From positions 128,001-192,000 of the IMG/VR virus record IMGVR_UViG_3300045988_170943: a DNA stretch of 64,000 nucleotides; one strand, 5' to 3'. How positions within the stretch are numbered: position 1 is the first letter of the stretch; the number at the start of each line of letters is the position of its first letter. Of the stretch, positions 12,089 through 62,800 are shown one piece after another. Source of the stretch: a virus. Under the pieces are notes generated by a model that searched no databases, was not told where the DNA came from, and worked only from the letters and a program-made list of their open reading frames with translations. The position numbers and the translations under genes were made by a program.

Positions 12089-12128
12089 CGGGCACACCAT
12101 CTAGGGAACACAGAGAAAGGGGACGCAC

Positions 12129-13758: not shown

Positions 13759-14556
13759 ATGCCATCCTCAACCAAAACCTCACACACACGAGGCTATGCT
13801 CACACCTTGAAGCCGTTCTTTACCTACTATGGCGGCAAGTACCGTGCAGCCAGCCGGTACCCGAAACCTCAGGGTGGTGTGATCGTGGAGCCATTCGCTG
13901 GTGCGGCAGGATACTCGGTGCGTAACTATCACCCAGCCACGAGAGTCGTTCTCAATGACCTGGATGAGCGTGTCGCAGCAACCTGGAAGTACCTGGTTAG
14001 GGCGACCAGTGAAGAGATCATGCGACTGCCCCTGTATGACGGGACCTGGGCGAGCGTGGATGATCTGACCGGCCTGTGTCAGGAGCAGAGGTGGCTGATC
14101 GGCTGGCACCTGAACAAGGGTACCGTGTCGCCGTCGAAGTCGCCGTCGAGGTGGATGCGTGACGCCCTAAGGACAGGTGTGGACGTGGGCGCGAACTACT
14201 GGGGTGAGGATGTGCGTGAGCGGCTTGCCCGACAGGCCCCTATGATCCGGCACTGGGAGGTACGCTGCGGCGACTACCTGGATCTACCTGACGAAGTACG
14301 CTCCCCCAACGGCAGTGGGGTGACATGGTTCGTGGACCCACCCTATCAGCAGGCTGGGAGGCATTACCGGACCAACATGGTTGACTACTGGCAGTTAGGT
14401 GAATGGTGTCGCAGCCGGTCTGGCCTGATCATCGTCTGTGAGAACGACGGGGCCACCTGGCTGCCATTCAAGAAACTAGGAAGCATCAAGGGTACAGCAG
14501 GTAGAGGCCGGGCCGGGGTGTCAAAGGAGGTAATCTGGGTGCAGAACCATGGGTGA
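13759..14556 (+). CDS. D12-class N6-adenine DNA methyltransferase (Dam-like): FFTYYGGKYR, EPFAGAAGY (SAM-binding FxGxG), VDPPY catalytic motif
   Basis: All three Dam-family motifs present in the canonical order. Confidence 0.8.
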   Translation: MPSSTKTSHTRGYAHTLKPFFTYYGGKYRAASRYPKPQGGVIVEPFAGAAGYSVRNYHPATRVVLNDLDERVAATWKYLVRATSEEIMRLPLYDGTWASVDDLTGLCQEQRWLIGWHLNKGTVSPSKSPSRWMRDALRTGVDVGANYWGEDVRERLARQAPMIRHWEVRCGDYLDLPDEVRSPNGSGVTWFVDPPYQQAGRHYRTNMVDYWQLGEWCRSRSGLIIVCENDGATWLPFKKLGSIKGTAGRGRAGVSKEVIWVQNHG

Positions 14557-16150: not shown

Positions 16151-16178
16151 TCCCTGTCAATCGTTAACCTCTCACCTG

Positions 16179-16208: not shown

Positions 16209-16261
16209 CTGTGCCGTAAATAAGAGAACAGATCGTTCAACATGAGCGGAGGTGAAGGCTG

Positions 16262-20297: not shown

Positions 20298-20356
20298 TGT
20301 GGAGAATCCTCCGCGCCTGCCCGCAACACACGTTAGTCAACACCTGTAGAATAAAG

Positions 20357-22859: not shown

Positions 22860-24960
22860 CACTACTGGGGACCTACAGTCGTACCCGACTATATATCGCA
22901 AACACGCAGAAGTCAACCCCTTAAGAGAAATGTGAGCGCACTATCAGCATTCTTTAACACACCATTAAAGATATTCCGTTTCGTTACTTAACATGCGGGG
23001 AGACATGACTCACATATACGTTACGGTAAGATAGCGGGTCATGATAGACTGGACAACATGTTCTTGCAGATGAGGCAACTGGGTTTGAATACGGTCGCCC
23101 TGCCGCGTATTGGTTCTGGGGTGGGTGGCTGTTCTACTGTAGTCTGACGTTGTTACTATTTCTCTACCTGTACTGGCGTGCTTTATTGATCCTGTGTTAA
23201 GATGCACACGTACTACTTCTTTGAGGGAGGCTCACCGGATGCAGTCTAAGACTGTTGTGTCTCGCACGTATCCTCGTAGACCGTATGCTGCGTTCAGTAA
23301 GAGTGGTGAGCCTCTGGATCTCAAGGAGGTTCTGGATGGTATCAGGCGGGATGTGGAACTGGTCTCCTACTATGCTCTGCAAGAGATGACGGAGCAGAAC
23401 CTTGCCCTGGTGATCTACTTCGACAAGTACAAGCCCGCCGAGGCTGGGCGAAGGATGGGACTGTACCTCCCCAGTGAGGTGAAGAAACAATTCAAGAGCG
23501 GCAGTTCCAGATTGGAACGTATGTTCAGAGAACAGGTAGTCGTCAATTTGAGATCCTGGGCCGCCCGAGTCAATGCCACTAACAGGACGTATGATGGTTA
23601 TATTTCGGCCGGGTGGAGGAGAACAGTCAGGAACTCCAAGCCGTCATCTATGCAACCTAGGTTGGCCCTGTCTGCTACAGATAAGGGCTATCACAAGAAC
23701 TTCAGTGTCACACCAGAACGTATCTCTCTTGACATGGTTGTCCAGGGGCGATGGGTGACCTTGCACTTCCCGACACCACCGCAGTTGTTGGAGGATAGTT
23801 GTGAGCCGGGCGTGCCGGACATCTGGGTTAACAAGAACAACAGGGTCATGTTCGGATTCCATGGGAAAACTAATCCAGGTAGGCCGGAGTTCTCCAGCCG
23901 CTATGTTGTTGGCGTGGACGTCGGGGTGACTAACCCGGCTGCTTATGTGGTCTGGGATACCAAGAACAAGGAGATTGTTGAGCAGTCCCTACTTGGGCAG
24001 CGCTCCAGATCGCTGAGTAACAAGATCAAACGCGGGATCAGACAGGTCGCCTCCCTGAAGAGAAAGGGGAGAGATGAGGAGGCCGCTCTTCACAGGACTC
24101 ATCTGTCTAATCGCCGTAAGGAACTGAGCATTCTCGTTGCTCAGGAGATCGCGGACGCGGCCTGGAGGCACGGCAATGCTCTGGTAGTGTTCGAGGATCT
24201 GAGCCATATTAAGAACACCATGAAGTTCGGTCGCTGGTTCAGGGGTGAGGTGTACAGGCGTACTCGGGACATGGTTGAAGCCGACGGCGGCAGGGTCCTC
24301 AAAGTCAATGCGGCCTACACCTCGAAGAGATGTCATGTCTGCCAGTCTGACCTGGACATGAGCGACTACAGTAGCCCCGTGTGTCACTCATGCGACATTA
24401 CCCACCACCGAGACATCAACGCGGCGGCGAACATCGCCCAGCGAGCCAACCATGAGAAGGCGTGCCAAACACGGAAGCGGCACACCACGAAGACGAAGTG
24501 TGTTCGCCGCTCCAAGTGCCGTACGAGACCGCTGAAGCATCCTGGTACGAAGAACCGGCCGACTCCTAAGGCGCCCCAGAACAGACCGAAAACTCTTGTT
24601 TGCTCACCTATCCCTAAGATGGAGGTGAGCAAGGGAATGTGCCCCGCAGAGTCTAGGGTTTCTGCGGTGGACCACGATACGTGGTTTCAGACAACCAGCG
24701 GCACGACGAATCCGAAGGAGAACCTATCTGTTGCAAGTGCAGTAGATGTGGTTTATCTCAAGGAATAGTCATACGCTTGCACTGGGATGAGGTGCTTTAT
24801 ACGATCAAGGAGGCGGCGAAACTACACCCTGGTATTGACGTTGAGGTGTGGGAGTTCTCCGTCAGGTGACCGTCCCTGAACACCCTACTAACATCAGGGC
24901 GGCCTGGGACACCAAACGTCGATATATCATGGTTGACAGGTGATCGGTCGAGACTCACAA
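22860..24960 (+). mobile_element. Solo tnpB (IS605/IS1341-like) element; the ends are not resolvable from sequence alone, so the extent is approximate. An AT-rich segment at 22860-23200 may carry the left end
   Basis: tnpB with no adjacent tnpA; AT-rich upstream patch; the ORF's 3' region probably carries the omega/reRNA. Confidence 0.4.
23194..24768 (+). CDS. tnpB: TnpB (OrfB) RuvC-like RNA-guided nuclease. It has the VGVDVGVTNP RuvC-I segment, a ...FEDLSHIK RuvC-II segment, a CHVCQ...CHSCD zinc finger and HRDINAAANIA RuvC-III, followed by an unusual C-terminal extension of about 115 aa that is basic and Cys/Arg/Lys-rich. The probable start is ATG 23239
   Basis: All RuvC split motifs and the Zn finger read directly. 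Confidence 0.85.
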   Translation: MLRCTRTTSLREAHRMQSKTVVSRTYPRRPYAAFSKSGEPLDLKEVLDGIRRDVELVSYYALQEMTEQNLALVIYFDKYKPAEAGRRMGLYLPSEVKKQFKSGSSRLERMFREQVVVNLRSWAARVNATNRTYDGYISAGWRRTVRNSKPSSMQPRLALSATDKGYHKNFSVTPERISLDMVVQGRWVTLHFPTPPQLLEDSCEPGVPDIWVNKNNRVMFGFHGKTNPGRPEFSSRYVVGVDVGVTNPAAYVVWDTKNKEIVEQSLLGQRSRSLSNKIKRGIRQVASLKRKGRDEEAALHRTHLSNRRKELSILVAQEIADAAWRHGNALVVFEDLSHIKNTMKFGRWFRGEVYRRTRDMVEADGGRVLKVNAAYTSKRCHVCQSDLDMSDYSSPVCHSCDITHHRDINAAANIAQRANHEKACQTRKRHTTKTKCVRRSKCRTRPLKHPGTKNRPTPKAPQNRPKTLVCSPIPKMEVSKGMCPAESRVSAVDHDTWFQTTSGTTNPKENLSVASAVDVVYLKE

Positions 24961-37473: not shown

Positions 37474-37633
37474 GTACCTCTCCCCACCTACCCTCGGCCC
37501 CTTTCTGTCCTACCAACCTAGTGATATTCGCCGCATTGAAGAAAACCGCCACCCCAGCCCCTCACTGAGGTGAGCAACCCCACAGGTGACGGCAGACACA
37601 AAAGACGAAACCTCCTTTTGGGAAGGGTTATGT

Positions 37634-38317
37634 ATGACAGACTTCAGTGACCTCACCTTCGAGGACAATGCGGACCAGCGCGGGCCGGTAATGATCGTCC
37701 TCGACTGCTCCGACTCCATGACGGCCATCCAGGACGGTATGACACAGAGCCCTCTCCAGGAACTCAACGCAGCCCTAGATGTCCTTATCGCCGAGATCGA
37801 CCGGGACAAGTTGTCACGCCGACGCGCAGACATATCCTTCCTGCCCTATGGGACCGAGCCAGCAGCCCCCACACCTTTCGCTACCGTGGACTCACGACAG
37901 ATCATTGTTCCTGAACTCTACGGGATGGGGCTCACCTACACGGCGAAAGCCCTAGAAGCCGCTATCGACCACCTGGAGACCCGCAAACAGGAGTACCGGA
38001 ACAACGGGGTCCCCTACAACCGGCCACTACTGTTCCTCCTCAGTGACGGTCTCGCCATGGACGACCTGACCTCCGTGTCGCAGCGGATTAAGGACTTGGA
38101 GGCGCAGAAGAAACTCTCGTTCTTCCCGGTTGGGGTCACGGACGCCGACATGGATCAGTTGTCCAGCATCGGGACACGCAACGCCCTAAAGGTGTCGGAC
38201 GGGAAACTTGCAGAACTGTTCCAGTGGCTCTCCGCCTCCGTGGCCTCCGTGTCGGCGTCAGCCCCAGGTGACGACAAGGTGAAACTTCCTGCACCAACCG
38301 ACTGGGCAGAGTTCTAA
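37634..38317 (+). CDS. von Willebrand factor A (vWA) protein of TerY/TerF type: MIDAS DCSDSM, ..LSDG.., downstream T/D (ORF opens at 37586)
   Basis: DxSxS MIDAS motif and vWA secondary pattern. Confidence 0.75.
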   Translation: MTDFSDLTFEDNADQRGPVMIVLDCSDSMTAIQDGMTQSPLQELNAALDVLIAEIDRDKLSRRRADISFLPYGTEPAAPTPFATVDSRQIIVPELYGMGLTYTAKALEAAIDHLETRKQEYRNNGVPYNRPLLFLLSDGLAMDDLTSVSQRIKDLEAQKKLSFFPVGVTDADMDQLSSIGTRNALKVSDGKLAELFQWLSASVASVSASAPGDDKVKLPAPTDWAEF

Positions 38318-38331
38318 ACCACCCAGTTCTT

Positions 38332-38389
38332 GAGCGCCCCTCCGGTCACCCTGCTACCACGGCCGGAGGGGCGCTCCATGTCTTTTCCC
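38332..38389 (+). terminator. Intrinsic terminator: 14-bp perfect stem gagcgcccctccgg / ccggaggggcgctc followed by CATGTCTTTTCCC
   Basis: Seen directly 15 bp after the vWA stop. Confidence 0.6.
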
Positions 38390-38494
38390 ACCCTCCGCAA
38401 AACCACGTGACACCAACAGGTGTTGACACTACCGGTTCTCTCCTGTACGATCCACGCCAGTTCAACTTATAGTCAACCACCAAAAGGAAGGTGA

Positions 38495-38776
38495 ATGAGA
38501 ATGCCTAACGCAACACAGAACGCACTCACCGTCAGTCGTGAGGCTCACGCACTCGCCGTGCTCGGCATTGACACCAGCATCCCCGCATATGGGACTGGAT
38601 ACCCGACAATCCCTCGTGACCGCGTGTGGGACGTTGCCGCAGATCGTGACCACTTGGTTGTGACGCTCCTGGAGCGTGACACAAAGCGGGCCGTACGTAA
38701 GACGAGCCGCCACAAGTACAATGTTGACGGCCACGAGTCTGTGATCGAGATGATGCGAGAAATCGCCGAAAAGTAG
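38495..38776 (+). CDS. Small hypothetical protein (93 aa)
   Basis: ORF with an AGGAAGG RBS. Confidence 0.4.
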   Translation: MRMPNATQNALTVSREAHALAVLGIDTSIPAYGTGYPTIPRDRVWDVAADRDHLVVTLLERDTKRAVRKTSRHKYNVDGHESVIEMMREIAEK

Positions 38777-39023
38777 GATCACTGTCGTTTGCAGTGTCAA
38801 CTTATTGCTCACTGGGCCCGCCCCACGCCTGAAACAATGGTGACTGAGGCGGGTCCAGTGCATACTCTGCCGCCCCCAAGCAACCCCGTAAATCCGTATG
38901 CCACTGCTGTTCAAACCATGTTTCCCTTGCAGTGATCTGTCGCATCCGCACGTTAGTGCCAGCGATATTTCACCCCATTAAAGCACCATTACAAGCACTA
39001 AAACGTTAACTGATCGGGGAACC

Positions 39024-39707
39024 ATGGACATTTACGCTGGCACCATCACCGGCCCCTACCATGAGCAACGTGGAGAAACCAGCCAGGACGCATACTGGTT
39101 CCTCCAAGAGAGAGGGTTCACAGTACTCGCAGTGGCCGATGGGGCTGGTAGCCTCCCCCGATCAGGGGTGGGTGCGGAGATCGCCGTGAACACTGCCGTC
39201 AATGAGACCATGGATGACCTGCTGGGTGGGGAGTCCTTTGAGGAGGCGGTCAGGAGTGGCATCGAGTGTGCCCAGACCTCTTTGACAATCCGGGACGACG
39301 CCCACGAGATCGGGTGCACACTCGCCTTGGCCGCCTACCATGAAGACGGCGGATGGGCGGCGGGAACTATCGGTGACTCCTTCATCGTTGTCACCGCTGA
39401 TCGGGACACGCACACTCTGATCACCTCCCCCAAACCAAGCGAGTTCAACAACATCACTCACCTACTCACCACCAGCAACGCGCAACCCACCATTGAGCAT
39501 GGGGAGGACCGACCACTCATGATCTCCGTCGCCACTGACGGGCTGGCCGGAGCGTCAACAAAATCTGGGGCACCCTCTGGGGCGTTCTGGGCCAAGGTCA
39601 GCGACTATGCCACCTCAGGTGAAGGACTCGATGTTGACGCGCTCCTAGAGTTCATGAACGCTGAGGGCCGGATCGAAGACGACACCACTCTCATCATTGG
39701 CACCTGA
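39024..39707 (+). CDS. PP2C-family Ser/Thr phosphatase (VADGAGS metal-binding motif, ATDGLAGA, terminal DDTTLII)
   Basis: Canonical PP2C motifs in order. Confidence 0.75.
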   Translation: MDIYAGTITGPYHEQRGETSQDAYWFLQERGFTVLAVADGAGSLPRSGVGAEIAVNTAVNETMDDLLGGESFEEAVRSGIECAQTSLTIRDDAHEIGCTLALAAYHEDGGWAAGTIGDSFIVVTADRDTHTLITSPKPSEFNNITHLLTTSNAQPTIEHGEDRPLMISVATDGLAGASTKSGAPSGAFWAKVSDYATSGEGLDVDALLEFMNAEGRIEDDTTLIIGT

Positions 39708-39866
39708 CCCCCACCACGCCAGCACAAACACCCCGAGCACATAGCAGTCAAGCCAGCCCCACGCAAGACCATCCGTCAACGCCACACCGTCTCTCGCAGT
39801 GACTTGATTTGTTGTGGTTTCTGTGGTTCCTGATATTGTGTTCTGAGTTGTTGAGGAGGTTATGGT

Positions 39867-40466
39867 TTGTCTGGTCGGTTGTTGAAGATTGGTGAGGTTG
39901 CGCGTCTGCTGGGGGTGTCTACGTCTAGGGTGCGTGATTATGCTCGTGAGGGTCGTCTGGAGTTCTCGTTGACTCCGGGCGGGCAGCGGGTGTTCGACCG
40001 GGCTGTGGTGGATCAATTCATGGGTGCTTCCCCGGACGGTGGGTGTGTGTTCTATGTGCGCTCGTCGAAGGGCAACAAGGGTGCGATGGATACTCAGGTG
40101 CGGGAACTCACTGAAGTGTTTGGTGAGCCGTCTCGGGTATACCGTGATGCTGGGAGTGGCCTGAATGAGAACCGGAAGGGACTGTGGCGACTCATCAGTG
40201 ACGCTGAGCGCGGTGGTTTCTCCAAGGTGTGTGTAACTCACGAGGACCGCCTGTCCAGGTTCGGGGTCGCCTTCATCAGGAGAATCCTGAAGGATCGAGG
40301 CGTTGAGGTGGCCATCCTGCACGATGACAAGCGGTCTGACCGTGAGGAGATACTGTTGGACTTCATGGCGATCCTGGCTTCGTTCTCTGGGCGCTACTAC
40401 CGGCTCCGGTCCAGGCGTGAGCAGAACGACCTACTGGATGAGGCCAGGAGTGCCCTGAATGGGTAA
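39867..40466 (+). CDS. tnpA: IS607-type TnpA: MerR-like HTH (IGEVARLLGVSTSRVRDYAREGRL) fused to a serine-recombinase catalytic domain (YVRSS...)
   Basis: Domain architecture read directly. Confidence 0.85.
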   Translation: MSGRLLKIGEVARLLGVSTSRVRDYAREGRLEFSLTPGGQRVFDRAVVDQFMGASPDGGCVFYVRSSKGNKGAMDTQVRELTEVFGEPSRVYRDAGSGLNENRKGLWRLISDAERGGFSKVCVTHEDRLSRFGVAFIRRILKDRGVEVAILHDDKRSDREEILLDFMAILASFSGRYYRLRSRREQNDLLDEARSALNG

Positions 40467-41901
40467 GGTCAGAACGTCTGTCGCCTTGCGGCACTTCGGC
40501 ACACCAGGCCATGATCATGATGCGGTGCATGTTGACCTGGTGTCGATGGTGCGTATGGTGCAGGCCGCCGCTACCGAGTTCACCATGTCACCGGCTTATG
40601 GTGACCTGATCAGGCGTATCCTGTCCGGCGACGTGAAGGTCGGGACACGGAAGAACCACAGCGGTAGGGGAAACGTCCCGGACGTGTTCTTCCCATGCAA
40701 CCGGTACAACATGAACGAGATGCTTCGCGCCCTGGTGATGGGGCACATCGAGACACATGCAGTAAGTACTGGACTGTTCCAGGTCATGGGCGACAACCCG
40801 ACCGAACGTGACCCCAAGACAGTGGCGTCCCTGTTCCGCGACGTCTACCCCAAAACCGCGTTGAGGGTCCCGTGGCGCACGGCCAGGTCCCACGTTCACC
40901 GGTACCATGACAAGGGCCAGAGGACACCACAGGACCCCAGAGTCCCAGCGAAGATCGACCTGTCTGCTTGCGACGGACACTACCTGAAACTAGAGGCCAA
41001 CAGACGTGACGTAACCTTGTGGTTTCGGAGGCTCCAGACAGCCAAAAACGTCACCCTGACGTTCCGCCTGCCCAGAGGGCAGAGGTTTCAGGGCAACAAG
41101 GTGTGCAAACCCACCATCCAGGTTGCGGGTGAGGAACTCATCTTCAGGTTCACCATCGAGAAGACCGTCGCAGACCGCGCCCCCTCCAAAGTGATGGGAG
41201 TGGATCTCGGTAAGGTCGAGCCCTACACCGCCACCATCATCAACGAGCAGGAGAACCACCACTCCGCACCATTTCAAGCATCCAGAAAGATCAAGCACCT
41301 CAACGGCCGCTACGACGACCTGATCCGACGCGCCCAACACCTTGAGGTCAAGGCGTCCCGCTGCCAGGCCAGCGGACACCGCCACAAAGCATCCGTACTC
41401 ACCAGCCACGCCCAGAACATCCGGGCGGCCGCCAGACGAGTCAAGGGCGAAACTACCCACCAGATCGCACATGAGATCGCCGAGACAGCATCCAAGCGCG
41501 ACACCGCCGTCGCCCTGGAGGACCTGTCCTGGCTGAACCACATGGGCGGACGCTGGAACCACTCAGAGACCCAGGAAGCCATCACCAACGCCTGCCGACG
41601 CCGAGGCATCCCCGTCAGAAAAGTCAACGCGCGCGACACCTCCAACACCTGCACCCGGTGCGGCAGCACAGTCACCCACAACCGGCGGAACAACACCTGC
41701 ACCACATGCAGATTCACCATCAACCGTGACGTCGCAGCATCCAGAGAGATCGCCTTACGCGCCACAAGAAACAAGCACAGGGAGCCGCTTCGCCAACGGA
41801 AGCGGCAGAGCATGACGGTCACGCACCAGTCAGCCCCGGCCACCACCATGAGTGGTACCGGCCCACAGGCAACCATGCCTGAAACGTCAGGTCAGGGGTG
41901 A
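40459..41901 (+). CDS. tnpB: IS607-type TnpB RuvC-like nuclease (MGVDLGKVEPYTA; ..ALEDLSWL..; CTRCG..C..C Zn finger; NRDVAASREIALRA)
   Basis: RuvC I/II/III motifs plus the Zn finger. Confidence 0.85.
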   Translation: MGKVRTSVALRHFGTPGHDHDAVHVDLVSMVRMVQAAATEFTMSPAYGDLIRRILSGDVKVGTRKNHSGRGNVPDVFFPCNRYNMNEMLRALVMGHIETHAVSTGLFQVMGDNPTERDPKTVASLFRDVYPKTALRVPWRTARSHVHRYHDKGQRTPQDPRVPAKIDLSACDGHYLKLEANRRDVTLWFRRLQTAKNVTLTFRLPRGQRFQGNKVCKPTIQVAGEELIFRFTIEKTVADRAPSKVMGVDLGKVEPYTATIINEQENHHSAPFQASRKIKHLNGRYDDLIRRAQHLEVKASRCQASGHRHKASVLTSHAQNIRAAARRVKGETTHQIAHEIAETASKRDTAVALEDLSWLNHMGGRWNHSETQEAITNACRRRGIPVRKVNARDTSNTCTRCGSTVTHNRRNNTCTTCRFTINRDVAASREIALRATRNKHREPLRQRKRQSMTVTHQSAPATTMSGTGPQATMPETSGQG

Positions 41902-41970
41902 GGCCCACAGAGAACACAGATTTTCTAGAAAACCCAACCCAACTGACGAGCGTAGAGAGAATACACACTG

Positions 41971-43917
41971 ATGAGAACCTGCCTTGTGAAAAGCCCGCAC
42001 GGGTCAGGACGAGTGACCCTCGGTGCCGAACTCGGTAGAGGCGGCGAAGGGTCAGTGTACACTGTCACTAGCGTGCAGGCACCAACCCTCGGCGCCCCCG
42101 ATAGCCTAGTCGCAAAGGTGTACCACACCCCAGGTGAAGGCAACCGGAGAGCCAAAATCCATGCCATGGTGTCCCGGCAGCCAGACGCCACGTCCCTCGC
42201 CTGGCCTGTCGCCGCCCTGTATGATGGGGTGGAGTTTATCGGCTACCTGATGCCGAAACTTGACGCTAGCCGGTTCCGTGACTGGTCCGACTTGGCGAAC
42301 GCAAAAACTCGCCGCGAGAGTGCACCGGACTTCGACTTCAAGTACGCGCTGCACGCATGCCGGAACCTTGCCGCAGCCATCGACAGTGCCCACAAGGTTG
42401 GGGCGGTCCTGGGGGACATCAACGAGTCCAACGACATGGTGGGTGCTGACGCCAGCATCCTTGTTGTTGACACAGACAGCGCCCAGATCACAGCCTCAAA
42501 CGGGCGAGTGTTCCCCTGCCTGGTCGGCAAGCCCGAGTATACGGCCCCAGAGATCTCGAAGGGGTCGTTCAAGGACAACCCTCGCACGGTCAGCACGGAT
42601 GTTTTCGCGTATGCGGTGATGGTGTTCCAGATGCTCACTGGTGGGGCACACCCTAGTGACGGGAAGTATACGGGTGGTGGGGACGCACCGGACACAAGGC
42701 ACAGGATCCTTCAGGGCGTGTACCCGGCCCTGGTGGACACGGCAGGCTTTCAGGCGGTGCAACGGATCCCCAGTGAGTGCGTCCCGAGCGTCATCATGGG
42801 AACAATCACTAGAGCAATGACTGGGAGACCTGACGCCCGGCCGAGCCTGTACGATTTTGTGAAAGACTACGATGATGTGCTGGCCGCGTTGAGACAGTGT
42901 CCACGTATCGGGTCGCACTGGTGGGATGGGCGGGACCATGCGGTGTGCCCCTGGTGTCTTCGCCGTGACGCTGGCTTGAATGACCCGTGGGGGCCTCCGG
43001 TGCAAAGGGCTCAGGCTGCGGTCCCGTCTAGTGGTGCGATCAGCCAGTCAACGCTTCCTCCGGTGGGGTTCAACTCGGCTAGCAGTGGGGGCTCACCGGC
43101 CGTCACGAGGAGAAGACTCACTCCGGCAGGCTCCAGCACCCCTCCAGGGCGTTCACAGCCTCCTGGTGGGACTGGTGCGCATCCTGGCTACCGTCCTCCC
43201 ACCCAGTACGCTCAGGCACCTGTGTCGGCGCCTCAGGCGGCCTCTAGCAGTGCTGGAGCCCCGCCGACTGGAGGCTATCACTCTCAGTCTTCTCTGCCGT
43301 TCACGAGTGGGTCTAGCGGCTCCACTGGGTCGTCCAGCAGTGTCCCGTCGAAGGTGAAAGGGAAGACTGTCCTGACGTACTCGGACGGTTCCGCTGCGGT
43401 GCGTCCACCTATCGCCACCCTGCTGAGGTCGAATCCTGGTGTCGCCTGGTACTGCATCAAGAACGAAACACCTGGTTTCGCTCAGGCTTGGTGGGATGTG
43501 AAGCGTCCCCTGGTGCTGCTGTGGGCGTCCGCCCTTGGTCTCCTGGTAGGGCTTCTTCTGTCGGGGACGTGGCTGATCGTTCTGCCGCAACTAGCACCGT
43601 ACCTTCAGTCACAGTACCCGTCGATGGACTGGATCTCTATCCTGGTTGGTTTGGGTGGCCTGGCGGCTGCTGCGACCGCATCCGTAGCGGTGCTCTGTTT
43701 GTTCCTGTCGTCAATGTGGGACTTCTTGAAGGCTAGGCGGCAGAACCGTGACCTCAATGTGTTCGAGCGTGACAAGTGGTGGGTGACCGTCCTGAGGTAC
43801 CTGCCGATCCCTGTGGTGTATGGGCCTCTGCTGGTGCTGGTGCTGGTGGCGTGCCTGATCGGTTTGGCGGTGAGTGCAGTGATCGGGATTCTGCGTATGA
43901 TCTTGGAGTCCGACTAA
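41971..43917 (+). CDS. Hanks-type Ser/Thr protein kinase: G-loop LGRGGEGSVY, VAKVY lysine, catalytic GDINESN, DTDSA, TAPE. It carries a CPWC zinc knuckle, a Pro/Ser-rich linker and 3 C-terminal TM helices
   Basis: Kinase subdomain motifs read directly. Confidence 0.8.
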   Translation: MRTCLVKSPHGSGRVTLGAELGRGGEGSVYTVTSVQAPTLGAPDSLVAKVYHTPGEGNRRAKIHAMVSRQPDATSLAWPVAALYDGVEFIGYLMPKLDASRFRDWSDLANAKTRRESAPDFDFKYALHACRNLAAAIDSAHKVGAVLGDINESNDMVGADASILVVDTDSAQITASNGRVFPCLVGKPEYTAPEISKGSFKDNPRTVSTDVFAYAVMVFQMLTGGAHPSDGKYTGGGDAPDTRHRILQGVYPALVDTAGFQAVQRIPSECVPSVIMGTITRAMTGRPDARPSLYDFVKDYDDVLAALRQCPRIGSHWWDGRDHAVCPWCLRRDAGLNDPWGPPVQRAQAAVPSSGAISQSTLPPVGFNSASSGGSPAVTRRRLTPAGSSTPPGRSQPPGGTGAHPGYRPPTQYAQAPVSAPQAASSSAGAPPTGGYHSQSSLPFTSGSSGSTGSSSSVPSKVKGKTVLTYSDGSAAVRPPIATLLRSNPGVAWYCIKNETPGFAQAWWDVKRPLVLLWASALGLLVGLLLSGTWLIVLPQLAPYLQSQYPSMDWISILVGLGGLAAAATASVAVLCLFLSSMWDFLKARRQNRDLNVFERDKWWVTVLRYLPIPVVYGPLLVLVLVACLIGLAVSAVIGILRMILESD

Positions 43918-44139
43918 CCAGCAGCCTTACCCCTCTCTGGTTCACTGTTTGGGGGAGCCCGCTTTTGCGTATCCTATGAACCGCCTTTTTCTTCGCTCGC
44001 ACTGGACGTGTTCACTGCTCTCTTGTTTTTGGTGTGACCTGGGTCCTGTTGCCTGATGGTGCTGTATCCTGCTATGATCCGAGATAGTAAGCGGTGCCGC
44101 AACCATGTGGCCAGAAAGAAGGAAGGAGGGCGTACTCAG

Positions 44140-44765
44140 TGACGGATCCTGTACTCACGCACGCCCCATCGTTCAGTGACCTACTCAACGATGGTGTTTC
44201 CAACCTGGTTGTGCTGGACTTTGATGGCGTGATCAACCCTTTCGCTTCCCGGTTCAACATCAATCAGAAGCGGTTTTACCGGCCGAACCATTTAGTGCAC
44301 GTCAAGAGCCCCTGGAGCGGCAACGAGCAGTACCCGGTTAAATGGTCCGATGACCTCATGTCTGACCTTAGTGGCATCATGGGTGACCCTGGGACGGTGC
44401 TGATCTGGTTGACGGCCTGGAAACAGCATGTTGCCAAGCCAGTCAGTCTCATGGGATTGGAGACGCACCACCCCCAGTACTGGCTAGACTTCGACAAGGG
44501 TGTCTCCTACCGTCCGAACCAGGGCGCTAAACGTGACGCCATGAGAGACTACCTGGGTGGCGGCACCCTTCCGGAGGGGGTACGGGTCGCGTGGGCTGAC
44601 GATGAGGTTCTGACTGGGGCCCACTCTGCTGACGTCACTTCCATGTTCGGCCCCGGCCTGTTACCTGTCCGGTCGAACCCGATGAATGGCCTGTCCAAGT
44701 GGGATGTGACCCAGATCAGTAAGCACCTGGGTTGGGCCGCCAGCAAGAGGGAGGACTCCCTGTGA
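44140..44765 (+). CDS. HAD-superfamily phosphatase (motif I VLDFDGVIN, motif II ..LTAW, Lys, motif IV WADDEV); ORF opens at 44094
   Basis: HAD motifs I-IV in order; possibly a nucleotidase/phosphatase. Confidence 0.5.
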
Positions 44766-53016: not shown

Positions 53017-53893
53017 TCCTCCCCCTCAACTGCTGAAGTGGGTTGGGAATAAGCAACGGGTAGCGTCTCAGATTGTGAGATACTTCCCGGATAGGTTCGG
53101 CACCTATTTTGAGCCGTTCCTGGGTTCTGGTGCTGTCCTTGGGGGTGTCGCACCCGATCATGGGGTGGCGTCAGATGTGCTGGAGCCATTGATTGACATC
53201 TGGCAGGCTGTAGTGGACGACCCAGAGGGGCTGGTGGCTGCCTATGACAGGTGGCGCTCTCAAGTCGAGATGGGGCGTGACCCTCGTGAGGTGTACGAGG
53301 AGGCCCGCACCGAGTTCAACCAGCACCGGCGGGGTGGCGACTTCCTGTATTTGAGTTGTGTATGTTATGGTGGGGTGATCCGTTTTAGGAAGAGCGATGG
53401 TCACATGTCTACGCCTGTCGGGTCGCACACGCCGATCTCAACGGAGTCTTTTAGGGGCCGCGTCTACCAGTGGCGTGAGCGCGTCAAGGGTGTGTCTTTT
53501 GTGTGTGCTGGTTATGAGTATGCGTTTGATCGGGCACAGGCCGGGGACCTGATTTACTGTGACCCGCCCTATGTTGATAGTCAGAAGATCCTGTATGGTG
53601 CGCAAGAGTTCAGGTTTGAGGAACTGGTTGACAGGATTCAGGATGCTGCCAGTCGTGGGGTCCGTGTCGCCTTGTCGATTGATGGGTCGAAGAAGAGTGG
53701 TGCGAGACGTATTCCGTTGACGTTTCCAGATGGCTTGTTTGAGGCGGAGGCTGAGGTGGCACTGGGTGGTTCCATGCTCAGGCGTTTTCAACTTCATGGT
53801 CAGGACACGAGCGGAGAGCACGTGCGGGACAGGCTGCTGCTCACGTACCCCCAGATGTTCTCAACACCCAGTCACAGGGCACGCAGAAGGTAG
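52985..53893 (+). CDS. Second D12-class N6-adenine DNA methyltransferase (LLKWVGNKQR, EPFLGSGAV, CDPPY); ORF opens at 52937
   Basis: Dam motifs in order. Confidence 0.8.
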   Translation: MRPSTSGPHGSPPPQLLKWVGNKQRVASQIVRYFPDRFGTYFEPFLGSGAVLGGVAPDHGVASDVLEPLIDIWQAVVDDPEGLVAAYDRWRSQVEMGRDPREVYEEARTEFNQHRRGGDFLYLSCVCYGGVIRFRKSDGHMSTPVGSHTPISTESFRGRVYQWRERVKGVSFVCAGYEYAFDRAQAGDLIYCDPPYVDSQKILYGAQEFRFEELVDRIQDAASRGVRVALSIDGSKKSGARRIPLTFPDGLFEAEAEVALGGSMLRRFQLHGQDTSGEHVRDRLLLTYPQMFSTPSHRARRR

Positions 53894-53906
53894 GGTGAGC
53901 GGGGCC

Positions 53907-54422
53907 ATGACTACCAGCAGGTACCAGTATACGAAAGCGGCCTTGACTGGGCACAGGGTTTTCAACTTGAGCGAGACGCAGCGACGAAACATGGATGCTG
54001 GGCTGCCGCTCGTTGTGAGAACGTTGGCCCGCTGGTACGGCACTACTACCCTGATCTCTGGCATGGCACTGGGTGCTGACATGATCTGGGCTCACCTGGC
54101 GGTCTCACACGGCCTGGACCTGCACGCTTATGTGCCATTCACGGGTCAGGAGGCCAAGTGGACGCACACGGATCAGGCAGCCTACCATGAGTTGCTGAGT
54201 CAAGCGGCCATGGTGCGCGTGTTCGGCCAGTCGTACTCGAACCACCTTTACCATGTGCGTAATGAGGCGATGCTGGCGGACTGTGACCTGATGGTGGCAG
54301 CATGGTGCCCGAGCAAGAAGAGGGGTGGTACGGCGTCCACTGTCCGCAAGGCCAGAGAGTCCGGCAAACCTCTGCTGGTCCTGGATCTGGACTCAGGTGA
54401 GGTGAACTGGTTCCAGAAGTGA
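53907..54422 (+). CDS. SLOG/DprA-like Rossmann-fold protein (YpsA/DUF1273-like; ISGMALGADMIWA, glycine-rich loop); ORF opens at 53730
   Basis: Motif resemblance only. Confidence 0.4.
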   Translation: MTTSRYQYTKAALTGHRVFNLSETQRRNMDAGLPLVVRTLARWYGTTTLISGMALGADMIWAHLAVSHGLDLHAYVPFTGQEAKWTHTDQAAYHELLSQAAMVRVFGQSYSNHLYHVRNEAMLADCDLMVAAWCPSKKRGGTASTVRKARESGKPLLVLDLDSGEVNWFQK

Positions 54423-59882: not shown

Positions 59883-62800
59883 GTGTTTACAATGAGTAAG
59901 GTTACGAAGCGGGTTGTTGGCATGGAGATCATCTCTCCAGGCAGTCCCCCTGACATTGACTCCGACTTCTCTACAGTGAGCAAGGACAGGGCATATGATT
60001 ATGTGTCTGACCTGTACGGCCATGACAACGTGTCCCATATTGTGACGTTCAATACTCTGGGCGCTAAGAGCGCGTTCAAGCGCATGTGCACGATCTACAG
60101 TGTCCCGTTTTCTCAAGCCAACCGTATCGCCGGAATGATGCCTGAGGGGGTAGAGGGCCACAAGATCACATTCAATGACATCTATGATGAGAAGTCAGAC
60201 TACTATGAGGATGCTGCCGACTTCCGTGCAGCCACCTCCGGGTCTGAGTGGCTGCCAATCATCACTGGGGCCAGGTCTATTGCGAACAAGGTGCAGGGGA
60301 CGGGAGTACATGCCTGTGGCGTGATCATCTCGAACAAGCCGTTGACTGACACGATCCCGCTGATGGTGGACAGCAAGGACGGGAAAGTCACTACCCAGTG
60401 GTCGTACCAGGAGTGTGAGGCGCTAGGCCTGATCAAGATGGACTTCCTGGGGCTGGACACGGTTGACCTGATCCAGCACACGGTCCAGTTCATTCAGAGG
60501 TCCGGTAAGGAGCCCCCGAACATGACTGAGATCATTCACGGAAAGATGGATGATGAGGACACGTACCGCCTGTTCCAACACGGCGAGACCATTGGTGTGT
60601 TCCAGTTCGGGTCAGAGATGGTGCGAGGCCTGCTGAAGCACATGAAACCAACCGAGTTCAACGACCTGGCAGCATGTACCGCTGTCGCCCGGCCGGGACC
60701 GATGGGCATGAACTCGCACACCATGTATGCGGACCGTAAGAATAACCTGGCTCCGGTTGAGCCGATCCACCCCGACTTCGTTGGGTCCCCTCTGGAGGAG
60801 ATCCTGGGCGGCACCTATGGGCTGTGCGTACCGGCGGGAACCTTGATTGAGGACTCCACAACTGGGAGGCGCGTACCTATTGAGTCGTTCCGGGAGGGAC
60901 ACTGCACGCCCTCCTGGAACCCGGACACTGGGAGTGTAGTGCACTCGCCAGTGTTCAAGGTCATCCACACTGGTATGCAGGATGTTGTCAAAGTGCGCAC
61001 ATGGGACGGCTGGAAGACAACCGTTGGTGTGGATCATGAGATGTTGACGCCTTCCGGGTTTGTGAAGGCTGGTGAACTCACTACCCATGACAGTGTTGGC
61101 GTCATCTCCCAGGGTCGCCTTAGGTGGGACCGTGTCACCGCCTTGGAGGCTGCTGGCGTCGTGGACTGTTACGACCTGGATGTGGACGACACGCACACTT
61201 ACCTTGTGGACGGTTTCGTCACCCACAACTGCGTCTACCAGGAGCAGATCATGCAGTTAGCGCAGCGGATCGCGGGCATGAGCCTCCAGGAGGGCGACAA
61301 ACTTCGCAAAGCCATGGGTAAGAAGAAGGCCGACGTTATGGCGAAGATGAAGCCGCGATTCATCCAGGGCGGAGTTGACAACGGGTACTCCGAGGAGGCC
61401 ATGAACAAACTCTGGGACATCCTGGAGCCATTCGCCAAGTACGCCTTCAATAAGTGCTTACATGGGAATACAGAAGTTCTCATCAGTCAGAATACTAAGA
61501 CGACAGTTAAGGATCTTTATCGCAGATTCAAGAATGGCGAGAAGAACATTAAGATTCTCTCCATGTTTGAGAGTGGTGACCTGCACTTTCACAACATCTC
61601 TGAGATTGTTCAGACCGGGGAAAAACCACTGTGGACAGTTGAAACTGAATCAGGCAAGACGATAAGTATCACTGAGAATCATCGCATGCTGACCACTGAT
61701 GGCTACCAAACCATCAAAAACGGTGGCATTCGGGTTGGCTCGGAACTGGTTAATGACAAGTACTGGAACAACAGGTTCAGAACAGTTCAAAGAAGACCAG
61801 CCCCTAGAAGAGGCTGGTCACATAAATCCAGTTCTTACCGTAAAGTCAAGAACATTTCTTTCAGTAGTGATGTTGACAAGGCCCTTGTTGAGAACTATCT
61901 GATTGTTCGCGGTGCCATATTTGAGACCAACAAGATAATCTCATCTCCTAACGAAGAGATCCTTGGTGCTGCTGACTTCTTTGTCAATGGCACCTACTTT
62001 GAGATGGATGGTAAAGGCCTCGGTCGCCAGTACCTCATTGACAACAAGTACGGTACCGTCCCGTTCGTCTACTTGACTCCTGAAAACTATAGAGACGAGA
62101 TTGATGCTGCCCTTATGGGTCATCATAAGAGCAGTGGTGACAAGGTGGTGTCCATCACTCCTCCAGAGGTTCTTGAGGACGGATCAGTTCTGCGTGAGAT
62201 GACGTATGACATTACAATGTCTGATGATGGTCCAGCGAACTTCATCGCCAATGGTCTAGTGTCCCACAACTCTCACAGTGTCGCCTATGCGATGAATGCC
62301 TACCAGGCTGCCTATCTGAAGACCCACTACCCGGTTGAGTTCATGTCCGCGCTGGTAGCACAGACCATCAGTGACCGGGACAAGACCCTCAACAATCTGC
62401 GTGAGGCCAGGCGTATGGGCCTGGCTATAGGGACGGTGGACATCAACCTGTCTGAGGTGCGAATGGCCCCAGACTACTCGGGTGAGTCGCCGTTCGAGAT
62501 CTTGTACGGCATCTCTGGTGTGAAGTCCGTCAGTGAGGATACCGCCCGTCTCATTGTTGCGGAGCGGGAGAGGGGCGGCAGGTTCACATCGGTCTACGAC
62601 GCTGCGACCCGGTGTGTGGCCGCTGGGGTGAACAACAAGACCGTGCTGGTGAATCTTGCCTTAGCGGGCGCGTTTGACGGCTTGGAACCGAACCGGAGGC
62701 GTGTTGTTGAGGCTATTCCCGCTCTGTTGAGTGTGGGTCGGGACGAGTCCTCCAAGGGCATGTCGCTGCTCGCTGCCTTGGATGTTCCTGGTGAGGACAT

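What the first reader, a model, noticed from the sequence alone, without database searches (positions are those of the whole stretch)
37586..43917. vWA - PP2C - Ser/Thr kinase (TerY-type phosphorylation triad) split by an intact IS607 insertion
A TerY-like vWA protein and a PP2C phosphatase are followed by an IS607-family element and then a Hanks-type kinase. The kinase is membrane-anchored (3 C-terminal TM helices) and carries a CPWC zinc knuckle. The vWA + PP2C + STK combination matches the conserved three-gene signalling module described with tellurite-resistance-type (TerY) loci. Here the insertion sits exactly in the 260-bp interval between the phosphatase and the kinase, leaving all ORFs intact. 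The kinase start lies 70 bp downstream of tnpB. This could uncouple kinase and phosphatase expression or put the kinase under read-through from the IS.
Basis: partly seen in the sequence, partly recalled or inferred. Interest (0 to 1): 0.55.

Follow-up and report, generated by a model that had tools for sequence, protein, structure and literature searches.

The report
IS607 insertion splitting a YegI-type kinase operon
A known three-gene bacterial signalling/defence module (metal-binding vWA protein, PP2C phosphatase, membrane Ser/Thr kinase, related to E. coli YegL-PphC-YegI) has an intact mobile element inserted 17 bases before its kinase gene in one strain lineage of a very large phage-like element from the human mouth; the insertion itself is ordinary, but the carrier is unusual.

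Summary
The window encodes a vWA protein (37634-38317), a PP2C phosphatase (39024-39707), an IS607-family element (39791-41953, tnpA+tnpB) and a Hanks-type kinase (41971-43917), and all ORFs are intact. All three module proteins are homologous to E. coli YegL, PphC and YegI, including the CPWC motif. That motif is part of an invariant C-H-C-C zinc site.

Uninterrupted relatives (91-94% nt identity) define the empty site, ACACCGT|AGAGAG. The native phosphatase-kinase spacer is about 100 bp, not 260, and the IS lies 17 bp upstream of the kinase ATG. The insertion is confined to one near-clonal lineage (at least 99.9% identical), seen in at least 13 human-oral metagenome contigs. The same IS occupies two other sites in relatives.

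- a conserved 93-aa gene between vWA and PP2C;
- a conserved terminator after vWA;
- a conserved promoter in front of the small gene.

The IS therefore cuts the kinase off from its operon promoter. It is co-oriented and has no terminator-like site, so read-through is plausible but untested.

The locus sits on a roughly 420-kb element that IMG/VR lists as viral. Verdict: a variant of a known module with an ordinary IS polymorphism, of moderate interest.

The parts
37634..38317 (+). TerY/YegL-like vWA protein, 227 aa. The longest ORF starts at the GTG at 37586. The MIDAS motif DCSDS is present.
   Evidence: Pfam VWA E=3.9e-14. 35% identity to E. coli YegL over 221 aa, E=2e-35. 27% identity over 89% of its length to 'TerY-C metal binding domain-containing' vWA proteins of enterobacterial plasmids. 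dN/dS 0.03-0.08.
38335..38376 (+). Terminator-like GC-rich hairpin after vWA (CCCCTCCGG...CCGGAGGGG), followed by a T-rich tract.
   Evidence: Read from the sequence. It is conserved in close relatives. In L003 a different, self-complementary stem occupies the same place. The consensus terminator scan did not flag it.
38423..38451 (+). Promoter-like site, TTGACA-17-TACGAT, upstream of the small gene.
   Evidence: It is the best sigma-70-like hit in the region, 10 of 12 matches. The -35 box and most of the -10 box are invariant even in L003, where the flanking sequence has diverged.
38495..38776 (+). Conserved small gene (93 aa) of unknown fold, lying between vWA and PP2C.
   Evidence: A gene of 86-101 aa sits at the same position in L001, L003, L004, L088 and L092. 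Protein identity ranges from 91% down to 30%, with invariant W45 and G79-H80. dN/dS 0.09-0.26. No hit in Pfam, NCBIfam or PADLOC.
39024..39707 (+). PP2C-type Ser/Thr phosphatase, 227 aa.
   Evidence: Pfam PP2C_2 E=8.7e-31. 27% identity to E. coli PphC (YegK), E=2e-11. dN/dS 0.05-0.09.
39708..39790 (+). Left part of the native PP2C-kinase spacer, ending in ...ACACCGT.
   Evidence: It aligns with the IS-free loci L001, L088, L096 and L098. L096 reads ACACCGT|AGAGAGAA across the empty site.
39791..41953 (+). IS607-family insertion sequence, 2163 bp. Its ends are defined to within 3 nt.
   Evidence: It is absent from relatives that are 91-94% identical. A 91%-identical copy sits at a different site in L105-L107, and identity stops at the same ends. 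A third site is seen in L114/L116. There is no target duplication longer than the shared CGT.
39867..40466 (+). tnpA: serine transposase with an N-terminal MerR-type HTH. TTG start, with a GAGGAGG Shine-Dalgarno sequence 7 nt upstream.
   Evidence: NCBIfam NF033518 transpos_IS607, 120 bits against a cut-off of 110, covering profile positions 2-186 of 187. Pfam Resolvase, MerR and HTH_17.
40459..41901 (+). tnpB: RNA-guided nuclease homologue, 480 aa. It overlaps tnpA by 8 nt.
   Evidence: Pfam Cas12f1-like_TNB and NCBIfam guided_TnpB. The alignment to the solved Cas12f 9nzq puts GVDLG, EDLS, CxxC...CxxC and NRD at the RuvC and zinc positions.
41720..41953 (+). 3' end of tnpB plus the right end of the IS. 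This is the presumed omega-RNA scaffold.
   Evidence: The RNA fold has z = -3.3 against shuffles. The region is 96% identical between the two IS copies, and identity ends at ...GACGAGCGT. Its role as omega-RNA is inferred from what is known about TnpB.
41954..41970 (+). The 17 nt between the IS right end and the kinase ATG (AGAGAGAATACACACTG). It is the kinase 5' leader and, by position, the presumed TnpB guide segment.
   Evidence: Junction mapping. The guide role is inferred, not tested.
41971..43917 (+). YegI-type Hanks Ser/Thr kinase, 648 aa. Its parts are a kinase domain (about residues 13-300), a C-H-C-C zinc motif, a low-complexity linker (347-456), a conserved juxtamembrane segment and three TM helices.
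   Evidence: 33% identity to E. coli YegI over residues 16-336, E=6e-41. Invariant G-loop, K49, D149, N154, D167/D169 and E194. The AlphaFold2 kinase domain has pLDDT mostly 80-95, and the best PDB match is M. tuberculosis PknB. dN/dS 0.08-0.17.
42898..42957 (+). Zinc-binding motif C310-x5-H316-x9-C326-P-W-C329, directly after the kinase domain.
   Evidence: All four residues are invariant in 30 aligned sequences, including E. coli YegI. Modelled at pLDDT around 90. No Pfam TerY-C hit; only a weak Prok-RING_4 hit, E=0.06.
43507..43893 (+). Three C-terminal transmembrane helices, at about residues 513-537, 555-583 and 612-641.
   Evidence: Kyte-Doolittle hydropathy and AlphaFold2 helices.
14051..14056 (+). 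Empty site in this window for a second insertion of the same IS, inside ORF 13759-14556.
   Evidence: L105-L107 carry the IS here. Their flanks align to window 11739-14056 and 14051-18031.

Best explanation
**What it is.** The locus is a stand-alone TerY-P-type phospho-signalling module, homologous to E. coli YegL (vWA), PphC/YegK (PP2C) and YegI (a membrane Hanks kinase with a zinc motif). In this lineage it has gained a conserved 93-aa gene.

**Native organisation (inferred).** The module appears to be two transcription units. The first is vWA followed by a hairpin terminator. The second starts at a conserved promoter at 38423-38451 and runs through the small gene, PP2C and the kinase.

**The insertion.**
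- In one near-clonal lineage, an active IS607-family element (tnpA serine transposase plus tnpB) inserted at ACACCGT|AGAGAG, 17 bp upstream of the kinase start codon.
- It lies in the same orientation as the operon and damages no ORF.
- The kinase is now 2.16 kb further from its promoter, and the phosphatase-kinase coupling is broken.

**Likely consequence (inferred).**
- The IS is co-oriented and has no terminator-like site.
- TnpB systems must transcribe across their right end to make the guide part of the omega-RNA.
- The kinase is therefore most likely still transcribed, by read-through from the operon promoter and from within the IS. Its ratio to the phosphatase is probably altered and probably lower.

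**Carrier.** The module is a long-standing resident of a roughly 420-kb phage-like element of the human oral microbiome. The insertion is an ordinary, tolerated IS polymorphism within it.

**Shown versus inferred.** Shown: homology, anatomy, IS boundaries, polymorphism, and purifying selection on all four genes. Inferred: the operon structure, read-through, and the biological role in signalling or defence.
For: **Homology to YegL/PphC/YegI and module conservation**
- Pairwise homology.
- Kinase catalytic and zinc residues are invariant.
- The kinase has a Hanks fold.
- Among 80 distant YegI-like kinase loci in GTDB genomes, 51 have both vWA and PP2C within 10 kb, and 47 have PP2C directly upstream on the same strand.
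- PP2C and kinase are adjacent in all uninterrupted relatives of the full-length family.

**Insertion anatomy**
- Empty sites and exact junctions.
- All 13 contigs carrying this exact TnpB have it at this site.
- IS-bearing contigs are 99.9-100% identical to the window over 9-12 kb, whereas IS-free relatives are 91-94% identical.
- The same IS sits at two other sites.
- TnpA passes the IS607 equivalog cut-off, and the TnpB RuvC and zinc motifs are intact.

**Transcription signals**
- Conserved hairpin and promoter.
- No terminator-like site lies between 39791 and 41970 on the + strand.

**Selection**
- dN/dS is 0.03-0.26 for all four genes.
- In the window lineage the kinase has 12 synonymous and 5 non-synonymous private codon changes.

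**Published support**
- YegI is an active inner-membrane kinase, and PphC is its neighbouring phosphatase (bioRxiv 10.1101/819920).
- A TerY-P triad is defined as vWA + PP2C + STK fused to a zinc ribbon (PMC11090510).
Against: - No expression data exist, so read-through, polarity and any IS-borne promoter are all untested.
- A 247-bp gap between the small gene and PP2C could hide another promoter or terminator. Co-transcription of the small gene with PP2C and the kinase is therefore not established.
- The simple scan found no promoter in the IS ends.
- The age of the insertion is unknown. The nearest IS-free relative is 6-9% diverged, so the absence of kinase decay says little.
- No PADLOC defence model for a TerY-P system was hit. 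The E. coli YegL/PphC/YegI controls were equally negative.
- The library holds no paper that explicitly equates YegLKI with TerY-P. That link rests on shared architecture and on the weak match to TerY-C vWA proteins.
- The viral nature of the carrier rests on IMG/VR labels and gene content. No capsid or terminase gene was seen.
Confidence: 0.72

Rival explanations
1. The insertion silences or strongly reduces the kinase through polarity or loss of its promoter. The phosphatase and vWA protein would be left without their kinase, making this a loss-of-function allele of the module that the element tolerates or even benefits from.
For: - The IS separates the kinase from the only conserved promoter-like site, at 38423-38451.
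- Only 17 nt of native leader remain.
- No promoter-like site was found in the IS right end.
- In E. coli K-12 the equivalent junction is also interrupted, by yegJ, and YegI expression is reported as very low (bioRxiv 10.1101/819920).
- Several other lineages carry extra ORFs in this spacer.
Against: - The kinase ORF is intact in all 13 contigs.
- Private changes in this lineage are mostly synonymous, 12 against 5.
- The IS is co-oriented and has no terminator-like structure.
- None of these points excludes recent silencing.
Confidence: 0.25
2. The module works for the giant phage-like element rather than for the host. It would serve either as a defence or superinfection-exclusion device against competing phages, or as a host-takeover kinase/phosphatase pair. 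The IS allele would then be a selected regulatory variant.
For: - Relatives with 97% identical kinases are on IMG/VR viral contigs of 248 and 394 kb.
- Eleven IMG/VR contigs (82-394 kb) carry relatives of the family; nine of them match beyond the kinase domain into the C-terminal half of the query.
- Contigs of 415-424 kb recur across assemblies.
- A 697,643-bp contig carrying a 39%-identical kinase was recovered twice with rotated coordinates, which implies it is circular.
- The neighbourhoods are mostly ORFans, with Lsr2 and Phage_VG64 hits.
- Module order and neighbours (the HAD_SAK_2-like gene and NrdI in L004; the M50 peptidase in the closer relatives and in L113) are kept down to 57% kinase identity.
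- TerY-P-like modules defend against T7-like phages (Gao 2020, as summarised in PMC7699616 and PMC11090510).
Against: - No capsid, portal or terminase gene was seen in the 64-kb window. PHROG hits are few.
- There is no match in GenBank phage or plasmid records.
- The window also carries pilin, sortase, ClpB-like and M50 genes, which are typical of cells.
- There is no evidence of selection for the IS allele.
Confidence: 0.4
3. The three genes are merely neighbours, with no functional link, and the kinase is a degenerate pseudokinase.
For: - The Pfam Pkinase match covers only residues 121-225, at 35 bits.
- The catalytic-loop lysine of HRDxK is replaced (GDINESN).
- vWA is separated from PP2C by a terminator-like hairpin.
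Against: - The linkage is kept in E. coli and in 51 of 80 distant loci from several phyla.
- The G-loop, K49, D149, N154, D167/D169 and E194 are invariant.
- E. coli YegI shows the same deviations and is catalytically active; K39 and D141 mutants were used as kinase-dead controls (bioRxiv 10.1101/819920).
- Purifying selection acts on all genes.
Confidence: 0.03

Closest known systems
E. coli YegL - PphC (YegK) - YegI
   Same: - Same three proteins in the same order and on the same strand: vWA, then PP2C, then kinase.
- Identities are 35% for vWA, 27% for PP2C and 33% for the kinase.
- The alignment covers the whole kinase domain and the C-x5-H-x9-CPWC motif.
- The kinase is membrane-embedded.
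- In K-12 the PphC-YegI junction is also interrupted, by yegJ, whereas B strains have a 4-nt overlap (bioRxiv 10.1101/819920).
   Different: - After the zinc motif the C-terminal halves do not align. YegI has 2 TM helices and then a cytosolic tail with a weak HhH match. This protein has a low-complexity linker, a conserved KGK..DGS..VRPP..ETP..WW segment and 3 terminal TM helices.
- There is an extra conserved 93-aa gene, and a terminator plus promoter lie between vWA and PP2C.
- The carrier is a giant phage-like element, not a chromosome.
TerY-P triad (Anantharaman, Iyer & Aravind 2012, as described in PMC11090510 and PMC4978471)
   Same: - TerY-like vWA, PP2C, and an STK followed by a zinc-binding module.
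- Stand-alone cassette behaviour on mobile DNA.
- The vWA protein matches the vWA part of 'TerY-C metal binding domain' proteins of ter plasmids.
   Different: - No ter genes and no McrBC/CoCoNuT, WXG/FtsK or nuclease partners were found among the window ORFs scanned.
- The zinc motif does not reach any Pfam model.
TerY-P defence system of Gao et al. 2020 (STK fused to an OB fold)
   Same: Three-gene composition of vWA, PP2C and STK. It is reported to protect against T7-like phages (PMC7699616, PMC11090510).
   Different: - The kinase C-terminus here is a zinc motif plus TM helices, not an OB fold.
- No PADLOC hit specific to such a system. E. coli YegLKI is equally negative.
- A defence phenotype was not tested.
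IS607 family (serine-transposase tnpA + tnpB)
   Same: - MerR-HTH serine recombinase above the NCBIfam IS607 equivalog cut-off.
- tnpB overlaps tnpA and is co-oriented with it.
- No target-site duplication.
- The same element is found at three or more sites.
- JGI names cluster members 'ISTsi1 orfA, putative resolvase'.
   Different: - Both resolved left flanks end in ACCG rather than at the GG that I recall for H. pylori IS607 (my own recollection, not checked here).
- The ends carry an imperfect inverted repeat, CTCG(N)CAGT (read).
- No Rfam family matches the presumed omega-RNA.
Deinococcus radiodurans DRA0331-DRA0334 operon (bioRxiv 10.64898/2026.01.23.701218)
   Same: A four-gene operon combining a vWA protein, an STPK, a small accessory protein and a PP2C phosphatase.
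   Different: - The gene order differs.
- The accessory protein there is an FHA protein, whereas the 93-aa protein here has no FHA match.
- No sequence comparison was made.

Membership tests
TerY-P / YegL-PphC-YegI triad | TerY/YegL-like vWA protein with a MIDAS metal site | tested here: met
   Pfam VWA. 35% identity to YegL, E=2e-35. 27% identity over 89% of its length to TerY-C vWA proteins. The DxSxS motif (DCSDS) is visible in the sequence.
TerY-P / YegL-PphC-YegI triad | PP2C-type Ser/Thr phosphatase encoded next to the kinase | tested here: met
   PP2C_2 at 107.5 bits against a cut-off of 24. Homology to PphC, E=2e-11. It is adjacent to the kinase in all IS-free relatives.
TerY-P / YegL-PphC-YegI triad | Hanks-type Ser/Thr kinase with catalytic residues in place | tested here: met
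   Pkinase above its cut-off. Invariant G-loop, K49, D149, N154, D167/D169 and E194. The fold matches PknB and other Hanks kinases. Enzymatic activity was not tested.
TerY-P / YegL-PphC-YegI triad | Zinc ribbon or zinc-binding module fused C-terminally to the kinase | tested here: met
   C310, H316, C326 and C329 are invariant in 30 sequences, including YegI. The region is confidently modelled. Metal binding itself cannot be tested here, and there is no Pfam TerY-C hit.
TerY-P / YegL-PphC-YegI triad | Conserved three-gene linkage across distant genomes | tested here: met
   Of 80 GTDB loci, 51 have both partners within 10 kb and 47 have PP2C directly upstream. The E. coli locus has the same layout.
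TerY-P / YegL-PphC-YegI triad | Phosphorylation switch and/or anti-phage activity | not testable with these tools
   This needs biochemistry or phage challenge. PADLOC gave no system-specific hit, but the YegLKI controls gave none either.
Gao 2020 TerY-P defence variant | Kinase fused C-terminally to an OB fold | tested here: not met
   After the zinc motif come a disordered linker, a short helical/strand segment and three TM helices. No OB-fold family was hit.
IS607 family | Serine transposase with an N-terminal MerR-like HTH | tested here: met
   NF033518 at 120 bits against a cut-off of 110, full length. Pfam Resolvase plus MerR/HTH_17.
IS607 family | Co-oriented tnpB downstream of tnpA, with an intact RuvC/zinc-finger region | tested here: met
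   8-nt overlap between tnpA and tnpB. TNB domain and guided_TnpB matches; the latter scores 79.6 bits, below its subfamily cut-off of 100. The D/E/D and CxxC pairs align to the solved Cas12f/TnpB structures.
IS607 family | Insertion without target-site duplication, and evidence of mobility | tested here: met
   Filled and empty sites were compared at two loci, and a third right-end junction was found. Only CGT is shared at the junctions.
IS607 family | Omega-RNA encoded at the right end, with the guide taken from flanking DNA | tested here: inconclusive
   The right-end region is structured (z = -3.3) and conserved between copies. However, there is no Rfam match, there are too few copies to test covariation, and there are no RNA data.

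The most novel reading that the evidence does not exclude
A YegLKI/TerY-P-type triad has a distinctive kinase tail (zinc motif, a conserved juxtamembrane segment and three TM helices). In the oral clade it also has an extra 93-aa partner. This triad is a vertically inherited core module of a clade of giant (0.2-0.7 Mb) phage-like elements associated with Actinobacteria. The element, not the cell, would use it, for inter-phage exclusion or for reprogramming the host by phosphorylation. The IS607 allele would then be a natural 'kinase-uncoupled' variant circulating in people. Its TnpB guide would be, by position, the kinase's own 5' leader. This links IS retention to the state of this junction.
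Probability: 0.3. Interest if true: 0.65.

Novelty: new variant of a known kind. Interest (0 to 1): 0.4.

Why it matters
The mechanism and physiological trigger of the vWA-PP2C-kinase triad are unknown. This holds both in E. coli (YegL/PphC/YegI) and in its role as a defence cassette (TerY-P).

This locus offers three things:
- A well-populated, strongly constrained family, in which conserved residues, the zinc site and the membrane tail can guide experiments.
- Natural alleles with and without a 2.2-kb insertion exactly between phosphatase and kinase. These could show whether the stoichiometry of the two enzymes matters.
- An indication that such triads live on giant phage-like elements of the human mouth. 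If confirmed, this would shift the question from host defence to conflict between mobile elements.

The IS insertion itself is routine biology.

Tried and rejected
- **Rfam.** A scan of the locus at E<=1 and of the whole window at gathering threshold found nothing, so there is no known omega-RNA family. No tRNAs were found.
- **PADLOC.** No TerY-P-specific hit. The E. coli YegL/PphC/YegI control was equally negative, so the result is uninformative.
- **GTDB species-representative scan with the kinase profile.** It could neither name the organism nor show that close genomes are absent.
- **Megablast of 25 kb against GenBank phages and PLSDB plasmids.** No match. A protein-level search found only distant YegI-like kinase domains.
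- **Small 93-aa protein.** Only near-identical homologues were retrieved. The AlphaFold2 model had pLDDT 45 and was unusable, so no fold search was run.
- **Pfam on the isolated zinc motif and on the C-terminal tail.** No meaningful hit and no TerY-C match.
- **PHROG scan of 40 window ORFs.** A few weak or unnamed hits and no virion hallmark.
- **Exact crossover position of the IS.** I tried to fix it from sites A and B. A CG/CGT core in an ACCGT-like target fits, but it requires two flank substitutions in L105, so it stays ambiguous to 3 nt.
- **Identity with 'Inocle' elements.** I considered this but did not pursue it; no comparison was made.
- **Literature link between YegI and TerY-P.** None is held in the library.

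Full report

Yes. Five co-oriented intact ORFs lie on the + strand between 37586 and 43917. Their family matches are:

| Gene | Match |
|---|---|
| vWA | Pfam VWA, E=3.9e-14 |
| Phosphatase | Pfam PP2C_2, E=8.7e-31 |
| tnpA | MerR-HTH plus Resolvase; NCBIfam IS607 transposase equivalog, 120 bits against a cut-off of 110 |
| tnpB | Cas12f1-like TNB; guided_TnpB |
| Kinase | Pfam Pkinase, 35.1 bits against a cut-off of 31.7 |

The kinase has three C-terminal hydrophobic helices by hydropathy, and AlphaFold2 models helices in the same places. It also carries CPWC at residues 326-329. The tnpB stop codon ends at 41901 and the kinase ATG is at 41971.

**2. What is the three-gene set?**

I fetched the E. 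coli K-12 yegL-pphC-(yegJ)-yegI locus and compared the proteins.
- The kinase is 33% identical to YegI over residues 16-336 (E=6e-41). The alignment runs through the whole catalytic domain and into CPWC.
- The vWA protein is 35% identical to YegL (E=2e-35).
- The phosphatase is 27% identical to PphC (E=2e-11).

In a 30-sequence alignment that includes YegI, these residues are invariant: the glycine loop (G22, G24, G25, E26, G27, V29), K49, D149, N151, D167, D169, E194 and R290. N154 is nearly invariant. C310, H316, C326 and C329 are also invariant, so the 'zinc knuckle' is a conserved C-H-C-C site directly after the kinase domain.

The AlphaFold2 model of the kinase domain is confident, and its best PDB matches are PknB and other Hanks kinases. 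YegI shows the same departures from the Hanks consensus. It has been shown to be an active, inner-membrane Ser/Thr kinase, with PphC as its neighbouring phosphatase (bioRxiv 10.1101/819920).

The architecture of vWA + PP2C + kinase-zinc ribbon is how the TerY-P triad is defined (PMC11090510, citing Anantharaman et al. 2012). The vWA protein also matches, weakly but over its full length, the vWA part of 'TerY-C metal binding domain' proteins on enterobacterial plasmids.

The linkage is not accidental. Of 80 distant YegI-like kinase loci from cyanobacteria, Chloroflexota, Acidobacteriota, Armatimonadota and others, 51 have both partners within 10 kb. In 47 of them PP2C lies directly upstream on the same strand.

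The variant that Gao et al. tested for defence has an OB fold after the kinase (PMC11090510). This protein does not. PADLOC models were not hit, but E. coli YegLKI does not hit them either.

**3.

vWA and PP2C are 706 bp apart. That interval holds three conserved features:
- A GC-rich hairpin with a T-rich tail (38335-38376). In a 70%-identity relative, a different but still self-complementary stem occupies the same place.
- A promoter-like TTGACA-17-TACGAT (38423-38451). It is the best hit in the region, and its -35 box is invariant even where the flanks have diverged.
- A 93-aa ORF (38495-38776). It is present at the same position in every relative down to 57% kinase identity, with 30-91% protein identity and dN/dS of 0.09-0.26.

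The small protein has no family match. Its structure could not be modelled.

I infer two transcription units: vWA alone, and the small gene with PP2C and the kinase. All four genes are under strong purifying selection, with dN/dS of 0.03-0.26.

**4. The insertion**

Relatives with 95-97% identical kinases lack the IS and have a spacer of 101-123 bp. Junction alignments place the IS at 39791-41953, which is 2163 bp.

The IMG/VR relative L096 reads ACACCGT|AGAGAGAA across the empty site, exactly the two window flanks joined. CGT occurs at both junctions, so the ends are ambiguous by 3 nt. There is no target duplication. The native spacer in this lineage was therefore about 100 bp, and the IS lies 17 bp upstream of the kinase ATG.

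A copy of the same IS, 91% identical, sits at a second site in L105-L107. There it interrupts the gene that is intact in this window at 13759-14556, and identity between the copies ends at the same termini. A third right-end junction occurs in two further IMG/VR contigs. Both resolved left flanks end in ACCG.

The TnpB RuvC and zinc residues align with solved Cas12f/TnpB structures. The element therefore looks functional and mobile.

**5. Population picture**

The exact TnpB protein is found on 13 contigs, always at this site. The exact kinase is found on 5 contigs. The IS-bearing contigs differ from the window by 0-2 substitutions over 9-12 kb (one short contig, L101, also shows a small indel). 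Every IS-free relative is 91-94% identical.

The samples are human oral metagenomes, for example PRJEB6997. The insertion therefore marks one near-clonal lineage that circulates in people.

In this lineage the kinase has 12 synonymous and 5 non-synonymous private codon changes, so there is no sign of decay. The age of the insertion is unknown, however.

Two observations suggest the spacer is a busy place:
- An IS-free relative, L092, carries the last 14 nt of the IS right end about 60 nt upstream of the present insertion point.
- L088 and L092 have identical kinases, but their PP2C genes differ at dS=0.36.

Other lineages also carry extra ORFs between PP2C and the kinase, as does E. coli K-12 with yegJ (bioRxiv 10.1101/819920).

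**6. Likely consequence**

Shown:
- The kinase is now separated from the conserved promoter by 2.16 kb.
- The IS is in the same orientation as the operon.
- No terminator-like site lies on the + strand between 39791 and 41970.
- No promoter-like site lies in the IS ends.

Inferred from what is known of TnpB systems:
- The omega-RNA is made from a transcript that runs through the 3' end of tnpB and across the right end into the flank.
- The region 41720-41953 is more structured than shuffled sequence (z = -3.3) and is 96% conserved between copies.
- The 17 nt after the right end, which form the kinase leader, are where the guide would lie.

I therefore favour continued but altered kinase expression by read-through (about 0.5) over silencing (about 0.25-0.3). 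Neither has been tested.

**7. Context**

The window also encodes:
- a Gram-positive pilin, a 2622-aa LRR/SpaA surface protein and a sortase;
- a ClpB-like ATPase and an M50 protease;
- NrdI and an HD protein;
- DnaE with an intein;
- a second, unrelated TnpB.

Many other ORFs have no family match.

Several points suggest a giant phage-like element:
- Contigs carrying cluster members recur at 415-424 kb.
- IMG/VR lists contigs of 248 and 394 kb with 97% identical kinases as viral.
- Eleven IMG/VR contigs of 82-394 kb carry relatives of the family; in nine the match runs past the kinase domain into the C-terminal half.
- A 697,643-bp contig with a 39% identical kinase appears in two data sets with rotated coordinates, so it is circular.
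- The neighbourhoods of distant relatives are mostly ORFans, with Lsr2 and Phage_VG64 hits.

No close relative exists in GenBank phage or PLSDB plasmid records.

I read the carrier as a huge phage or similar giant extrachromosomal element of oral Actinobacteria. I saw no virion genes, however, and this remains unproven.

**8. Verdict**

The description is correct and the module assignment is right. The insertion is a normal, lineage-specific IS polymorphism with a precedent at the same junction in E. coli K-12. The regulatory consequence is plausible but unshown.

The added value lies in four things: the exact anatomy, the fourth gene, the natural IS+/IS- alleles, and the giant-element context.

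Noticed in passing
L092:3343-3460 (the PP2C-kinase spacer of an IS-free relative): The spacer contains CAACTGACGAGCGT, the last 14 nt of the IS right end, about 60 nt upstream of the window's insertion point. It looks like a relic of an earlier insertion of the same IS in the same spacer.
   Followed up: partly
L088 compared with L092 (the kinase and PP2C genes): The kinases are identical at the nucleotide level (dS=0), but the adjacent PP2C genes differ at dS=0.36. This indicates recombination with a breakpoint in or near the PP2C-kinase spacer.
   Followed up: partly
window 13759-14556 (site at about 14051-14056): This intact ORF, which has a weak D12 methyltransferase match, is the empty site of a second insertion of the same IS seen in L105-L107. 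The window sequence at that site (GGGCGAGCGTGG) itself resembles the IS right end (GACGAGCGT).
   Followed up: partly
window 23194-24768: A second TnpB-like ORF of 524 aa. It has no DNA similarity to the IS at 39791-41953, and no recognisable transposase gene lies next to it.
   Followed up: partly
window 59883-63905: A DNA polymerase III alpha (DnaE) gene interrupted by an intein, with Intein_splicing and PT-HINT matches.
   Followed up: no
window 1025-11656: A Gram-positive pilin with an LPXTG anchor, a 2622-aa BspA-LRR/SpaA-repeat surface protein and a sortase. These are encoded on what IMG/VR classes as a viral contig family, which is unexpected cargo for a phage.
   Followed up: no
whole window; L096/L097, L111/L112, L117-L127: Contigs of 415-424 kb recur across many assemblies. 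IMG/VR labels relatives as viral. A distant relative sits on a 697,643-bp contig recovered twice with rotated start points, so it is circular. Most neighbouring genes have no Pfam match. Together these suggest a clade of giant phage-like elements, several of them from human oral samples.
   Followed up: partly
L009, L012, L024 (Pseudanabaena); L007: In some distant triads the PP2C-kinase spacer is 0.6-1.0 kb and holds small ORFs. L007 has two tandem kinase paralogues after PP2C. The junction is variable in several lineages.
   Followed up: partly
window 44094-44765: A gene directly downstream of the kinase has a near-threshold HAD_SAK_2 match (the HAD domain of 'Swiss Army Knife' RNA-repair proteins). 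It is conserved in this position in L003 and L004, so it may belong to the same unit.
   Followed up: no
window 20288-20893 and 53730-54422: ORFs resembling nucleoside 2-deoxyribosyltransferase and YpsA/SLOG. These families are typical of nucleotide-centred conflict systems. They are not adjacent to the triad.
   Followed up: no
window 38777-39023: The 247-bp gap between the small gene and PP2C contains inverted and direct repeats (GATCACTG / CAGTGATC, TGCAGTG twice) and a GGCCCGCC...GGCGGGTC hairpin. It may be a regulatory region.
   Followed up: no
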